This document shows positions 1,396 to 23,230 of a DNA stretch of 64,000 bases, piece by piece. Source of the DNA: Octopus vulgaris (taxonomy: Eukaryota). The stretch covers positions 54,498,001 to 54,562,000 of the forward strand of contig OX597818.1 in NCBI GenBank assembly GCA_951406725.2, in the 5' to 3' direction. Made by a program: the position numbers and the translations under genes. The notes below the pieces were generated by a model that did no database searches, was not told the origin of the DNA, and saw only the letters and a list, made by a program, of their open reading frames with translations. The first letter of the stretch is position 1; each line of letters starts with the position of its first letter.

Positions 1396-2256
1396 ATGGA
1401 CTACGTAGATGCACAACATGTTGAAGGTATATATTTTAAAGAGAAAGATCTCGATTCACAACCTAAAGATGTTGAAATGGTGTCTGTTAAAGAAAATAGC
1501 GAATCTATAAATGCCAGATATGACATGGATCGTAACAAAGAGAATCTGGCTTTAATAATCAACAATGAAAGTTTCGACGAATCGACAGGAATGCCTGAAC
1601 GACAAGGATCCGATGAAGACGCATCAAAAATTAAAAAATCTTTGAAGTCATTGCATTTTGAGGTGATCGACCACAATAATTTATCAGTGAAAGAGATGAC
1701 GCAAATCTTCACGGATATATCCAGGATGGACCTTGCGAAGTATAACTGCTTCGTTTGTGTTATATTGACCCACGGTGAAGACGATAACCAGATTTATGGC
1801 ACTGATGGAAAAGTAAATCTGGATACTTTAGTGGAGATGTTGCTTCCCAATAGATGCCCAGGTTTAATAGGTAAGCCAAAACTATTCTTCATACAAGCTT
1901 GTCGGGTAAAAAAAATGGACAGCGGTAAAGATGTGGTCGATGCAGCTAGAGAAACACATGAAAAAGTCACATCTCACAAACTACCAGTTTGGGCCGACTT
2001 TCTTCTGGCTTATTCCACTGTCTCTGGATTTTACTCCTGGAGAAATTCTACTACTGGAACCTGGTTTATTCAGTCGTTAGCCCACATTTTGGAAAGACAC
2101 GGAGACCGACTTGAGCTGCAGCACTTAATGCTTTCGGTAAATCGTAAGGTTGCCTATGAATATGAGTCTGACACTTGGGAACCAGAGATTAATGAAAAGA
2201 AACAAGTTCCTTCCATAGTCAGCATGTTAACAAAACAATTATACTTTTACAAGTAA
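1396..2256 (+). CDS. Caspase-3/7-like executioner caspase, copy 1 (286 aa, single-exon CDS, QACRV variant)
   Basis: ALIINN, RxGS, CVILTHG (catalytic His), GKPKLFFIQACR (catalytic Cys), ADFLLAYST, YSWRN, GTWFIQ, KQVP..SMLTKQLYF; short prodomain; ACCATGG start; AATAAA at 2413 and 2686. Confidence 0.93.
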   Translation: MDYVDAQHVEGIYFKEKDLDSQPKDVEMVSVKENSESINARYDMDRNKENLALIINNESFDESTGMPERQGSDEDASKIKKSLKSLHFEVIDHNNLSVKEMTQIFTDISRMDLAKYNCFVCVILTHGEDDNQIYGTDGKVNLDTLVEMLLPNRCPGLIGKPKLFFIQACRVKKMDSGKDVVDAARETHEKVTSHKLPVWADFLLAYSTVSGFYSWRNSTTGTWFIQSLAHILERHGDRLELQHLMLSVNRKVAYEYESDTWEPEINEKKQVPSIVSMLTKQLYFYK

Positions 2257-3048
2257 AATCTTCGGTTAACATACGTTCTCCCAATCTCCCCTCAGTTCAT
2301 GTATTTATATATGTATATATAAAACAACTTATAAACAAGGGAAAAAGAAAAAAATTCTAATGTCAAATATTCCGAAAATAGACAAAATATCAATAACCAT
2401 ATAATTTATCACAATAAATGTATGTATACATGCATTCATGCATACATACATACATACATACATACATACATACATACATACATACATACATACATACATA
2501 CATACATACATACATAAGCTTTTTTCCCCGTTTTCTGTTCTGTTGTCAGAACTTGGTATTTCGTTTAATAGTAATATTTTTTGCGTACATCAACATTTAT
2601 TTCCTGTAATATTTGAGAGTGAGCCTTGCAGCCGGTCCTTTGTAAACTTATCATTCTACCGTTGAGGATGATAACACGGCTTTGCAATAAAACATGAAAG
2701 TTACTAAACATCAAAATTTATTCAGTAACATATGACAGAGAACTGATAACATTGGTCATTTGATTTTACTTCTTAATATTAATGGCAGAAACTATTATTT
2801 CCTTGTTCAATTGTTGTCCAGTGGACTTATAATAAAATTGCATTGCAACCATGAACATCATTTTTCGCTATTTTTATTAAGACTTCATCGCTTTATACGG
2901 TCTTTGAATTCTTAACACGGTTGGCTGTTATTTCAGAGTTGTTTGAATGCTACATCGACATTTCTTCAGTTTCTCACCAGTCACCACTACTGCACTTACG
3001 TTTATAACCTGTTAACAATTTCACTTTTTTTTCCGATCGATTTACCTA

Positions 3049-3545
3049 CTCTTTTACTCTTTTACTTGTTTCAGTCATTTGACTGCGGCCATGCTGGAAC
3101 ACTGCCTTTAGTCGAGCAAATCAACCCCAGGACTTATTCTTTGTAAGCCCAGTACTTATTCTATCGGTCTCTTTTGCCGAACCGCTAAGTGACGGGGACG
3201 TAAACACACCAGCATCGGTTGTCAAGCATTCTTTTGTTAGTCCCGTACTCAGCTATCAGTCCATTGCATCCGATAGCAGAAACGACTGTAAGTTTCTGCA
3301 GTTCATAAGATGATTCTTTATTCTTTTGTCAGACACACAAACATATACACACACACTTATATATATATACATATATACGACAGGCTTCTTTGAGTTCCCG
3401 TCTACCAAATCCACTTACAAGGCATTGTTCGGCCCGGGGCTATAGCAGAAGACACTTGCCCAAGATGCCACGCAGTGGGACTGAACCCGGAACCATGTGG
3501 TTGGTTAGCAAGCTACTTACCACACAGCCACTCCTGCGCCTATAG
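3049..3545 (-). mobile_element. tRNA-derived SINE present only in unit 1
   Basis: Reverse complement matches the SINE at 49578-49998 (head GGCGCAGGAGTGGCTGTGTGGTAAG, tail GTAAAAGAG repeats). The site is empty in units 2 and 3 (TTTACCTAATTAACAAC). Confidence 0.85.
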
Positions 3546-3991
3546 AATTAACAACACCTTACACCGGCTGCAAGGTAAAGAATTTTTCAACTAAACGTCG
3601 CAGGCGCAGATTCAAGAGTCAAAGATAGCCAATAATACGATGACTAAGACTTTGTTAAAATTGTTAAAATTGCAAGGCTGAAGAACCATTCTCAAAAACT
3701 AGCGATAAATTTAACAACAGCTGCGCAAGATATCATTGCTGACTAATACAAGATTGGAAATAATGTTTCTATTTACAATGCTAAGATAATGTGTCAGGAT
3801 AAATTCATGCAGGGCTTGGAAATTAAGAGCCATTCCTCAGTTCTTGACTGGAATCTCTTCGACCAAATTGTAACCGTGGAATGTTTCCTCTGAAATCTTG
3901 ATCGATTCAAAAGTAAAAACAGAGAATACAGTGGATATACGATATTAAGAAAAACTCGAAATAAACGAGAATCTTTGATAGATATAAAGAC

Positions 3992-20939: not shown

Positions 20940-21750
20940 TATATGTGTGTATGTGTGTGTGTTTGCGCCTGTGTGTGTATGTGTCTGTGTGTGTGTGTGT
21001 GTGTGTGTGTATGTTATATATGTACATATCTATATAAAGAGATAAGTATGAGTGTGTGTGTGTGTGCGTATGTGTGTGTGTGCGCCTGTGTCGGTGTGTG
21101 TGTGTGTGTGCGCTTGTGTGTGTGTGTGTATGTTATATATGTACATATCTATATAAAGAGATAAGTATGAGTGTGTGTGTGCGTGTGTATGTGTGTGTAT
21201 GCGCCTGTGTCTGTGTCTGTGTGTGTGTGTGTGTGTGTGCGCGCGCTTGTGTGCTTGCGTATGTATGTTATATATGTACATATCTATATAAAGAGATAAG
21301 TATGAGTGTGTGTGTGTGTGTATGTGTGTGTGTGCGCCTGTGTCTGTGTCGGTGTGTGTGTGTGTGTGTGTGCGCGCGCGCTTGTGTGTGTATGTTATAT
21401 ATGTACATATCTATATAAAGAGATAAGTATGAGTGTGTGTGTGTGTGTATGTGTGTGTGTGCGCCTGTGTGTGTGTGTGTGTGTGTGTGTGTGTGTGTGT
21501 GTGTGTGTGTGTGCGCGCTTGTGTGTGTATGTTATATATGTACATATCTATATAAAGAGATAAGTATGAGTGTGTGTGTGTGTGCGTATGTGTGTGTGTG
21601 CGCCTGTGTCGGTGTGTGTGTTTGTGTGCGCTTGTGTGCTTGTGTGTGTATGTTATATATGTACATATCTATATAAAGAGATAAGTATGAGTGTGTGTGT
21701 GTGTGTGTGTGTGTGTGTGTATGTGTGTGAGTGAGTGTGTGTATGTGTGT
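20940..21750. repeat. Composite minisatellite: six copies of a ~45-bp core separated by variable (GT)n
   Basis: GTATGTTATATATGTACATATCTATATAAAGAGATAAGTATGAG near 21009, 21128, 21263, 21390, 21527 and 21648; a single copy in unit 1 (about 686-729). Confidence 0.9.
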
Positions 21751-22357
21751 GTGTTCAGTTTCGTTATATGACTGGACAAAACCTAGCAATGATTTTATAT
21801 CGTTTTCTCAGAAAATATTTGTGTTATTTCTTTCTTCGAAATTGCATAGAAAACTTCCTTGTCATCTCTCATTGGTTCATACGTAACCATGATTATTGAA
21901 GCATAACGTATAACAGAGATAATATCATATATATAGCATAGAAAATAAATAAGACGCAGAAGTAGTCTTGCGTTGAGTGACTATTGTAGAATCACGCCCA
22001 TCGTCAGTGAAATTGACGCTCAGCGGACTGTCTTTTTATTATCAAGTTCTATGTGGACATTTGCTTAATTATCAACTGATCTCAGCATTTAAATATTGAT
22101 TTAACCCAGGAGTACGTTCATCAAACTACATCTTTTATCCTACAAATTCTTATCTTATATTAATTAATACTTTTTTGAATAATCGCATGTGTTATCCGCA
22201 CCATCAGGATCATTTTAACCGCTATTTCTGAGCTGAACAAAGGGAAAAACCGAGGTAATAAATCGTTATTTTCCGTTCCTCAAATTTTGCAAAAATATTT
22301 CACGGCTTAAAGTTGTACTGCTACATTTCGGCTGCTTTATAGATATTCCGCTCAACC

Positions 22358-23230
22358 ATGGACTACGTAGATGCACAACGTGTTGAAGGTATATATTTTA
22401 AAGAGAAAGATCCCGATTCACAACCCCAAGATGTTGAAATGGTGTCTGTTGAAGAAAATAGCGAATCTATAAATGCCAGATATGACATGGATCGTAACAA
22501 AGAGAATCTGGCTTTAATAATCAACAATGAAAGTTTCGACGATACGACTAAAATGTCTAAACGACAAGGATCCGAAAGAGATGCATCAGCAATTAAACAC
22601 ACATTGGAGTCGTTGCATTTTAAGGTGATCGACCACAATAATTTATCAGTGAATAAGATGACAGAAATCTTTGCGGATATATCCAAGATGGAGCATACGA
22701 AGTATAACTGTTTCGTTTGTGTTATATTGACTCACGGTGAAGACGATAACCAGATTTATGGCACTGATAGCAAAGTAAAGCTGGATACTTTAGTAGAGAT
22801 GTTGCTTCCTGAGAGATGTCCGAGCTTAATAGGTAAGCCAAAACTATTCTTCATACAAGCTTGTCGAGGAACAAAACTGGACAGCGGTGGTGATGTGCTC
22901 GGTGGAGCTAGCGTCGATGCTAGAGACATATATAAAAAAGTCACACCTCACAAAGTACCAGTTTGGGCCGACTTTCTTCTGGCTTATTCCACTGTCCCTG
23001 GATTTTACTCCTGGAGAAATTCTACTACTGGAACGTGGTTTATTCAGTCGTTAGCCCACATTTTGGAAAGAGACGGAGACCGACTTGAACTGCAGCACTT
23101 AATGCTTTCGGTAAATCGTAAGGTTGCCTATGAATATGAGTCTGACACTGATAAACCAGAGACGAATGGAATGAAACAAGTTCCTTCCATAGTGAGCATG
23201 TTAACAAAACAATTATACTTTTACAAGTAA
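22358..23230 (+). CDS. Caspase-3/7-like executioner caspase, copy 3 (290 aa, single-exon CDS)
   Basis: Intact ORF with THG, canonical QACRG, YSWRN and KQVP motifs; ACCATGG start. Confidence 0.95.
   Translation: MDYVDAQRVEGIYFKEKDPDSQPQDVEMVSVEENSESINARYDMDRNKENLALIINNESFDDTTKMSKRQGSERDASAIKHTLESLHFKVIDHNNLSVNKMTEIFADISKMEHTKYNCFVCVILTHGEDDNQIYGTDSKVKLDTLVEMLLPERCPSLIGKPKLFFIQACRGTKLDSGGDVLGGASVDARDIYKKVTPHKVPVWADFLLAYSTVPGFYSWRNSTTGTWFIQSLAHILERDGDRLELQHLMLSVNRKVAYEYESDTDKPETNGMKQVPSIVSMLTKQLYFYK

What the first reader, a model, noticed from the sequence alone, without database searches (positions are those of the whole stretch)
1396..23230. Tandem executioner-caspase array whose coding sequence diverges faster than its flanks
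Seen: by manual count, copies 1 and 3 differ at about 48 of 286 residues plus a 4-aa indel, while the ~600 bp upstream differs at only about 15 positions. Changes cluster in the L1 region (ESTGMPE / ESTEMSK / DTTKMSK), adjacent helices (many charge swaps), the linker and the L4 loop (DTWEPEINEK / [10 protein letters not shown] / DTDKPETNGM). The catalytic His/Cys and YSWR are fixed. Known: L1, L3 and L4 shape substrate and inhibitor binding. Inference: a young birth-and-death caspase family under diversifying selection, as expected for immune or pathogen-inhibitor arms-race genes. This is the best candidate here for an undescribed system.
Basis: partly seen in the sequence, partly recalled or inferred. 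Interest (0 to 1): 0.8.

Follow-up and report, generated by a model that had tools for sequence, protein, structure and literature searches.

The report
Patchwork octopus executioner-caspase gene cluster
Two intact and one broken caspase-3-like gene of an octopus gene cluster differ more in their coding sequence than in the DNA around them, likely because the copies swap segments with older paralogs, which would shuffle active-site loops into many enzyme variants; diversifying selection remains possible but is not shown.

Summary
Copies 1 and 3 differ at 48 of 286 residues plus a 4-aa indel. Coding divergence is 8.9% against 3.5% in the flanks. The window is Octopus vulgaris, probably one end of a cluster of about 14 caspase-3-like genes. 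Copy 2 is a retroelement-truncated pseudogene.

Synonymous divergence (dS about 0.10) is raised as much as non-synonymous (dN/dS 0.8-1.0), and the pseudogene shows the same coding excess. Coding patches are therefore older than the flanks. Recombination among paralogs is strong (PHI-like z -9.5; no-recombination simulations never below -1.5). Copy 3's L1 region is identical over 28 residues to a paralog only 70% alike overall. Flanks are mosaic too.

Positive selection is suggestive only: p=0.023, lost (p 0.13-0.8) once segments get their own ages. The linker and L4 carry a non-significant amino-acid excess, and this subfamily has replaced the xMHD linker site.

The genes already appear to be listed in a 2024 supplement, with no such analysis in the parts read. 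The closest analogue is the primate CASP1 locus. No earlier scan note covers this DNA.

The parts
1396..2256 (+). Copy 1: intact single-ORF caspase-3-like gene, 286 aa (P0001); linker site DVVD; QACRV where 32 of 32 other paralogs have G
1573..1626 (+). L1 tract of copy 1 (codons 60-77), 18 residues identical to the older paralogs P0006/P0007
   Evidence: donor scan not significant after correction (p x56 = 0.11)
1..1395 (+). Upstream flank of unit 1 (likely promoter and 5'UTR), about 98% identical to 20320-22357 outside microsatellites
2257..6235 (+). Downstream flank of unit 1, shared with units 2 and 3; 3048-3546 is a dispersed-repeat insertion found only in unit 1
6567..8992 (-). Broken retroelement with an RVT_1 domain (Penelope-like by a recalled GIY-YIG motif; no Pfam hit for it), joined directly to copy 2 at about codon 49
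8993..9743 (+). Copy 2: 5'-truncated caspase pseudogene (1-nt insertion, TGA at 9531-9533); about 10% from both copy 1 and copy 3; linker DVLD + ASVD
9744..13844 (+). Downstream flank of unit 2, itself a mosaic: 9% from unit 3 at first, then 0-2% from unit 3 (10226-12173), then closer to unit 1
15525..16141 (+). Relic (about 70% identity) of the upstream/promoter region of an older unit, with no coding sequence behind it
20320..22357 (+). Upstream flank of unit 3; about 21956/21988-22357 is likely an unspliced 5'UTR
   Evidence: contigs of two RNA-guess runs start there; DNA-like runs go on
22358..23230 (+). Copy 3: intact single-ORF caspase-3-like gene, 290 aa (P0121); 12-bp linker insertion, first linker Asp lost (DVLG), ASVD kept
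22547..22630 (+). L1/helix tract of copy 3 (codons 64-91), 28 residues identical to O. sinensis P0013, which is 70% alike overall
   Evidence: p 3.5e-5; x56 donor tests = 0.002
23231..26092 (+). Downstream flank of unit 3

Best explanation
This is part of a tandem cluster of single-ORF caspase-3-like genes in Octopus vulgaris whose members are mosaics of one another, and the coding sequence likely outruns the flanks because recently duplicated units took in coding segments from older paralogs by gene conversion or unequal crossing-over. SHOWN: synonymous sites are as diverged as non-synonymous ones and about 3 times the flanks; the dead copy has the same excess; divergence comes in patches; the protein family carries a strong recombination signal; more distant relatives align over the coding sequence and break off at its ends. 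INFERRED: the direction of transfer (clearest for the L1 region); that weak purifying selection outside the catalytic core lets imported and new changes persist; and that the products are executioner-type proteases differing in L1, L4 and linker, and so likely in activation and substrate or inhibitor preference. A minority of sites in the linker and L4 may be positively selected, but that is not needed to explain the pattern.
For: dS 0.09-0.11 and dN 0.09-0.10 versus flank 77/2649 = 2.9%, p 1.5e-5. Pseudogene c2 vs c3: CDS 70/729, flank 67/2468, dS 0.11-0.13. Codons 1-56 and 201-260 sit at flank level while 57-200 and about 263-272 are high. Both states of 30 of 48 differing residues occur among 32 other paralogs, and 17 of 48 among 11 O. 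bimaculoides/Argonauta proteins. For residues 61-90, c1-c3 differ at 12 of 30, but c1 is 4 from P0006/P0007, c3 is 3 from P0002/P0122/P0013, and c2 is 2 from P0008/P0009. PHI-like z: -8.7 (31 proteins), -9.5 (14 O. vulgaris), -7.6 (28, isoform-labelled models removed); 110 no-recombination simulations gave z from -1.5 to +4.5. 3Seq-like test: 5 of 14 O. vulgaris proteins significant after Bonferroni, 8 of 31 overall. Contigs laid at 80% likeness show loose ends at 22326-22345 and 23234-23237. The 18 private residue differences are about what flank divergence predicts under neutrality (3.45% x 648 N sites, about 22; my arithmetic).
Against: The AU test did not reject c1+c3 (p 0.18) or c1+c2+c3 (p 0.14) as a clade in residues 60-118. 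None of the three window copies was significant in the all-triplet 3Seq-like scans; only c3 passes when the sister pair is fixed (0.002), c1 does not (0.10-0.12). For the linker no donor is known: c1's nearest neighbours differ at 7-8 of 30, and the changes are 14.7 non-synonymous to 1.3 synonymous (omega 4.6, p 0.087). The single-age M1a/M2a LRT of 7.5 was reached in 0 of 66 mosaic-null simulations (3 of 66 passed 5.99). One distal flank stretch is about 8.5% diverged, which fits flank homogenisation instead. Recombination tests used protein sequences of annotated models; only c1 and c3 could be checked against DNA.
Confidence: 0.55

Rival explanations
1. Peak of divergence: copies 1 and 3 are older duplicates (about 9% apart). 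Conversion keeps homogenising their flanks and gene ends, while selection removes conversions that overwrite the central coding region because the two enzymes have different functions. This can act together with the best explanation.
For: c1-c3 at 4855-5271 is about 8.5% diverged, like the CDS. In residues 171-290, c1+c3 are sisters (99/97) with a long c1 branch. O. sinensis P0024 shares 24 identical residues with c1 (79-102) and P0022 matches c3's linker, so both types predate the species split. The model is described in PMC3924837 (passages read).
Against: The pseudogene shows the same coding peak against both neighbours, though it may have died recently. L1 haplotypes match distant paralogs instead of being private. 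P0024 is c1-like before about residue 110 and c3-like after, so the types do recombine (p 0.07).
Confidence: 0.25
2. One reading: young duplicates whose loops were driven apart by positive selection on new point mutations (arms race with pathogen inhibitors).
For: Overall omega about 0.94 despite a constrained core (omega 0.21, p 0.013). Single-age M2a beats M1a, p 0.023. Linker omega 4.6; L4 of c1-c3 has almost only non-synonymous change (p 0.13). 24 recalled pocket positions carry 74 parsimony changes in 30 octopod proteins versus 46 predicted from vertebrate caspase-3/7 (permutation p 0.025).
Against: It cannot raise dS threefold over the flanks or explain the pseudogene. The signal is lost with segment ages (p 0.13-0.82; those breaks were chosen after seeing the data and absorb real omega variation). 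No single loop is significant: L1 p 0.07, L4 p 0.10, L2 p 0.36, L3 p 0.56. Conserved pocket residues vary no more than other conserved residues (Fisher p 0.35-0.50). All loops together omega 2.5, p 0.115.
Confidence: 0.12
3. Redundant dosage copies drifting neutrally towards loss; the sequence variety has no functional meaning.
For: omega about 1; copy 2 is dead; copy 1 has private changes at otherwise fixed sites such as G171V and A78K; O. sinensis P0022 and P0024 are partial models.
Against: His, Cys, Arg69 and Gln167 are invariant in 30 of 30 full-length octopod proteins; core omega 0.21; 13 of the 14 annotated O. vulgaris proteins are full length.
Confidence: 0.06
4. The units are mis-assembled haplotypes of one locus.
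For: Tandem units 96-98% alike in the flanks, in a repeat-rich region.
Against: 9% coding divergence, unit-specific insertions, 6.5 kb of unrelated spacer between units 2 and 3, and separate c1-like and c3-like genes on one O. sinensis chromosome.
Confidence: 0.02

Closest known systems
Vertebrate executioner caspase-3/-7 (Peptidase_C14, PF00656)
   Same: Short prodomain, p20/p10 fold, His-Cys dyad, QACRG and YSWRN motifs; best PDB hits by sequence (E 1e-69) and fold (TM about 0.7, 43-46% identity).
   Different: Not a one-to-one orthologue: the octopod genes form their own clade (SH-aLRT 100) within a group of cephalopod and unnamed sequences. Single-ORF coding sequence, at least 14 copies, variable L4 without the conserved Phe256 equivalent.
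Octopus 'CASP3/6/7 like' genes in Wang et al. 2024 (PMC11543851, Supplementary Data 1)
   Same: Lists 24 O. vulgaris, 25 O. sinensis and 11 O. bimaculoides genes. Ov like14 (286 aa, linker 18) and like15 (290 aa, linker 22) match copies 1 and 3 by length; O. sinensis accessions match P0005, P0009, P0011, P0013, P0015, P0016, P0022.
   Different: In the passages, section 6 and supplement table that I read, they are only tree entries, with no cluster, conversion or selection analysis. The match to copies 1 and 3 is by length, since no accessions are given. One supplement (picture PDF) could not be searched.
Primate CASP1/4/5/CARD locus (Holland et al. 2024, PMC11630849)
   Same: Tandem caspase locus with repeated duplication, gene conversion, pseudogenes and loss (abstract and section 10 read).
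   Different: Those are CARD-bearing inflammatory caspases, where conversion homogenises CARDs and positive selection was demonstrated. Here the enzymes are executioner-type, exchange appears to diversify the catalytic domain, and selection is not demonstrated.
MHC / plant R-gene type haplotype shuffling, and the opsin 'peak of divergence' (PMC3924837)
   Same: Conversion among many paralogs and pseudogenes creating new combinations; local divergence peaks (passages read).
   Different: No allelic polymorphism data, balancing selection or ligand is shown here.

Membership tests
Caspase (clan CD, C14A), executioner type | Peptidase_C14 domain and caspase fold | tested here: met
   Pfam E 1e-60 and 6e-62; AF2 model pTM 0.71 matches caspase-3/7
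Caspase (clan CD, C14A), executioner type | His-Cys dyad and P1-Asp pocket (Arg64, Gln161, Arg207 in caspase-3 numbering, recalled) | tested here: met
   H126, C169, R69, Q167, R220 present in copies 1 and 3; 3 of 30 full-length octopod proteins change R220 (K, E, T)
Caspase (clan CD, C14A), executioner type | Short prodomain without CARD/DED; Asp site in the linker | tested here: met
   About 45-residue N-terminus, only PF00656; DVVD in c1, ASVD in c3
Caspase (clan CD, C14A), executioner type | DEVD-type proteolytic activity and a role in apoptosis | not testable with these tools
   Needs enzyme assays
Birth-and-death multigene family | Many tandem paralogs, pseudogenes, lineage-specific copy sets | tested here: met
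   14 annotated O. vulgaris proteins on one 147.5 Mb contig, pseudogene c2, relic, Argonauta-only clade; tandem order outside the window inferred from accession numbers only
Conversion-shuffled gene cluster (CASP1-locus or MHC-like) | Segmental exchange among paralogs | tested here: met
   PHI-like and 3Seq-like tests with simulated nulls; protein level only
Conversion-shuffled gene cluster (CASP1-locus or MHC-like) | Named donor tracts in the window's copies | tested here: inconclusive
   c3 tract p 0.002 with the sister pair fixed, c1 0.10-0.12; AU tests not significant
Arms-race immune gene family under diversifying selection | Sites with omega above 1 after allowing for recombination | tested here: inconclusive
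   p 0.023 with one age, 0.13-0.82 with segment ages; only 2-3 nucleotide sequences
Arms-race immune gene family under diversifying selection | Excess change at binding surfaces | tested here: inconclusive
   74 vs 46 changes at recalled pocket sites (p 0.025), but matched conserved-site test and per-loop tests not significant
Arms-race immune gene family under diversifying selection | Infection-linked expression or a pathogen antagonist | not testable with these tools
   Runs are unlabelled contigs; proteome supplement unreadable

The most novel reading that the evidence does not exclude
Octopuses keep a combinatorial repertoire of executioner caspases. L1, linker, L3 and L4 modules are reshuffled among 14 or more cluster genes and their pseudogenes and held diverse by selection, as in MHC or plant R genes, giving enzymes with different activation routes (xMHD versus DVVD/ASVD linker sites) and different pockets (including non-Arg S1 variants) that evade pathogen caspase inhibitors or cut different death substrates.
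Probability: 0.25. Interest if true: 0.68.

Novelty: new member of a known kind. Interest (0 to 1): 0.4.

Why it matters
Executioner caspases are usually few and conserved (established knowledge). A cluster of about 14 that exchanges active-site loops is a natural panel of caspase variants and a testable candidate for immune or senescence-related cell-death diversification in octopuses. It is also a warning that 'CDS diverges faster than flanks' in tandem arrays can come from segment exchange. Octopus studies that report 'caspase-3' as one marker (for example the skin-mucus proteome, PMC11431876) may be pooling many paralogs.

Tried and rejected
No whole genome was held, so the cluster outside the window was studied from proteins only and no family-wide dN/dS could be run.

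The pocket-rate test (p 0.003-0.004) was rejected as biased by rate shrinkage at invariant sites and redone.

Three O. sinensis models (P0005, P0125, P0007) are labelled isoforms of one locus and may be chimeric; the PHI-like test was repeated without them and on O. vulgaris alone. The 8 of 31 count includes them.

Expression: no run on record as RNA was listed. In one search, an RNA-guess run has a 391-nt contig over 21988-22379 with 4 substitutions and 1 gap; four of these five differences are the copy-1 state. It cannot be assigned to copy 1, copy 3 or a neighbouring unit, and copy-3-specific letters at 22543/22544 and 22813 were not seen in that run. This is a weak hint only.

RNA editing: A>G places were 40 of 244 in X1 versus 39 of 205 in DNA-like X19, so no signal.

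Of 25 best-supported CDS differences, 21 are non-synonymous, close to the neutral share of about 76%; uninformative (40 of 383 rows were shown).

The metagenome scan gave 80 loci with best segments of 50% identity or less; none looked like an octopus cluster gene and none was read.

Literature searches listed no paper on conversion or selection in this cluster; the library lacks most subscription journals. No complex prediction was run, as no partner is known.
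Full report
WHAT IS THERE. The window is Octopus vulgaris. Both intact proteins are in the protein collection on a 147.5 Mb contig that also carries proteins named caspase-3-like [Octopus vulgaris]. A tblastn of copy 1 finds three caspase copies in the 64 kb and no others. Copy 1 (1396-2256) and copy 3 (22358-23230) are single open reading frames with a Peptidase_C14 domain. Their closest solved relatives are caspase-3 and -7, by sequence and by fold of an AF2 model (pTM 0.71, loops low-confidence). 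Copy 2 (8993-9743) is a pseudogene: it starts at about codon 49, directly joined to a broken RT-bearing retroelement, and has a 1-nt insertion and a TGA at the codon for W227. Each copy sits in a repeat unit with 3-6 kb of shared flank, and a 70% relic of an older upstream region lies at 15525-16141.

THE FAMILY. Fourteen annotated O. vulgaris proteins lie on the same contig: twelve with accessions between CAI9722923 and CAI9722936, plus copies 1 and 3. O. sinensis, O. bimaculoides and Argonauta have their own sets. The octopod genes tested form one clade (SH-aLRT 100, quick tree of 35 proteins). Supplementary Data 1 of PMC11543851 lists O. vulgaris 'CASP3/6/7 like' 2-15 with lengths in the same order as those accessions, ending in 286 and 290 aa. 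I infer that the window is one end of this cluster and that both genes are already catalogued there.

OBSERVATION CHECK. 48 residue differences plus a 4-aa gap; 13 substitutions and 2 indels in the 600 bp upstream. With microsatellites masked, CDS 77/861 versus flank 119/3454, p 1.8e-10.

WHY THE CDS IS MORE DIVERGED. Nei-Gojobori counts for c1-c3 give dS 0.09-0.11, dN 0.09-0.10 and omega 0.79-1.04 for kappa 1-3. dS exceeds flank divergence (77/2649) at p 1.5e-5 and does not differ from dN (p 0.78). A codon ML model gives omega 0.94. Selection on amino acids cannot raise dS, so the central coding region is older than the flanks. The pseudogene repeats the pattern: 9.6% from copy 3 in the CDS, 2.7% in the flanks, and only 2 differences in 900 sites at 11321-12173. 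Divergence is patchy: codons 1-56 and 201-260 are at flank level, 57-200 and L4 are high. The flanks are mosaics as well. Unit 2's flank is unit-3-like and then unit-1-like, and c1-c3 reach about 8.5% at 4855-5271.

EXCHANGE AMONG PARALOGS. At 30 of 48 differing residues both states occur among 32 other paralogs. In residues 61-90 the three copies are each closer to a different outside paralog (2-4 differences) than to each other (7-12). Copy 3 has a 28-residue identical run with O. sinensis P0013, and copy 1 an 18-residue run with P0006/P0007. A PHI-like statistic gives z -8.7 for 31 proteins, -9.5 for 14 O. vulgaris proteins and -7.6 for 28 after removing three isoform-labelled models, whereas 110 simulations without recombination gave -1.5 to +4.5. 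A 3Seq-like test is significant after Bonferroni for 5 of 14 O. vulgaris proteins. Contigs laid at 80% likeness break off at the CDS ends (loose ends at 22326-22345 and 23234-23237), so older relatives offer homology mainly in the CDS. Against this: the window's own copies are not significant in the all-triplet scans; with c1/c3 fixed as sisters, c3's tract passes (0.002 after 56 tests) and c1's does not (0.10-0.12); and AU tests on residues 60-118 do not reject their monophyly (p 0.14, 0.18). Exchange in the family is therefore shown, while donor and direction for these copies are likely only.

SELECTION. The catalytic core (116-168) is constrained (omega 0.21, p 0.013). The linker has omega 4.6 (p 0.087) and all loops 2.5 (p 0.115). 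M2a beats M1a at p 0.023, a value not reached in 66 mosaic-null simulations, but p becomes 0.13, 0.52 and 0.82 as segments get their own ages; those breaks were chosen after seeing the data. Across 30 octopod proteins, 24 pocket positions (list recalled from caspase-3) carry 74 changes versus 46 predicted from 20 caspase-3 and 36 caspase-7 vertebrate proteins (p 0.025), but no single loop is significant and conserved pocket sites vary no more than other conserved sites. The 18 private residue differences are near the neutral expectation from flank divergence (about 22; my arithmetic). Diversifying selection is plausible for linker and L4, but unproven.

LIKELY FUNCTIONAL MEANING (inference). 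All residues for Asp-specific catalysis are intact in copies 1 and 3. The linker site is xMHD in 29 of 29 proteins outside this subfamily, but DVVD in copy 1, DVLD plus ASVD in copy 2, and ASVD alone in copy 3 and O. sinensis P0022. By recalled caspase preferences, xxHD suits initiator caspases and DxxD suits executioners, so copy 1 may be processed by itself or by other executioners. Other cluster members alter the S1/S3 arginine (YSYEN, YSYTR, YSWKN) or shorten L4. Copy 1's QACRV, where 32 of 32 others have G, may impair it. Expression evidence is weak: an RNA-guess run holds a 391-nt contig over the likely 5'UTR of this subfamily, not assignable to a copy. Caspase-3/7-like transcripts are reported in O. 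vulgaris hemocytes (PMC4199593, passages) and caspase-3-like proteins in skin mucus, changing with captivity and senescence (PMC11431876, passages; its supplement could not be read, and may name the paralogs).

COMPARISON AND NOVELTY. It works like the primate CASP1 locus (duplication, conversion, pseudogenes; PMC11630849, abstract and section 10) and resembles the shuffling and divergence-peak patterns reviewed in PMC3924837 (passages). It is a member of the executioner-type caspases and a birth-and-death cluster; membership among arms-race families is inconclusive. PMC9389742 (passages) only raises a possible expansion of executioner caspases in squid. Searches (listings only) found no analysis of this cluster. 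Earlier scan notes: none near this place or sequence; one unrelated bacterial TPR-CHAT array by words.

VERDICT. A real feature and a new member of a known kind. The headline contrast is mostly a product of segment exchange; a selected, combinatorial caspase repertoire remains open at about 1 in 4. Interest 0.4.

Noticed in passing
P0013, P0026, P0018, P0008 (paralogs outside the window): The Arg of YSWRN (caspase-3 R207, S1/S3 pocket) is replaced by Glu, Thr or Lys, and P0011/P0014/P0015/P0128 have YSYRR with a 5-residue L4 deletion; these may have altered specificity or be inactive.
   Followed up: partly
window:1900-1960, 9360-9420, 22860-22925: Linker cleavage site changed from the family's xMHD to DVVD (c1), DVLD+ASVD (c2) and ASVD only (c3); the 12-bp indel supplies the second site.
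   Followed up: partly
window:1396-1416 and 22358-22378: N-terminal DYVD-A / DYTD-A motif, a possible DxxD processing site, kept in most paralogs.
   Followed up: no
window:15525-16141: About 70% relic of the upstream region with no CDS; the sequence following it also appears as a loose end in run X20.
   Followed up: partly
window:17550-18685: Inverted repeat of 534 bp at 93% identity around a (TA)n-bordered centre.
   Followed up: no
window:31366-32467: Tandem array of about six 184-bp units, each matching a dispersed repeat at 45396-45578 and 60356-60538.
   Followed up: no
window:35748-41029: 1.35 kb inverted repeats (96%) flanking two long ORFs (36914-37774, 37660-39165) that look RT/endonuclease-like by eye but have no Pfam hit.
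   Followed up: partly
window:47234-48826 and 51872-58548: Non-LTR retrotransposon RT ORFs (RVT_1); the 54600-58166 ORF (1188 aa) has a 79% partial copy at 51890-54301.
   Followed up: no
P0031, P0034, P0036, P0038 (unnamed ENA contigs): Four related full-length caspases called on DNA contigs form their own clade beside the octopod cluster, hinting at a parallel single-exon expansion in another animal.
   Followed up: no
PMC11543851 Supplementary Data 1: About ten further O. vulgaris effector-like caspases of other lengths (like1, like16-24) suggest a second octopus expansion not retrieved among the top hits here.
   Followed up: no
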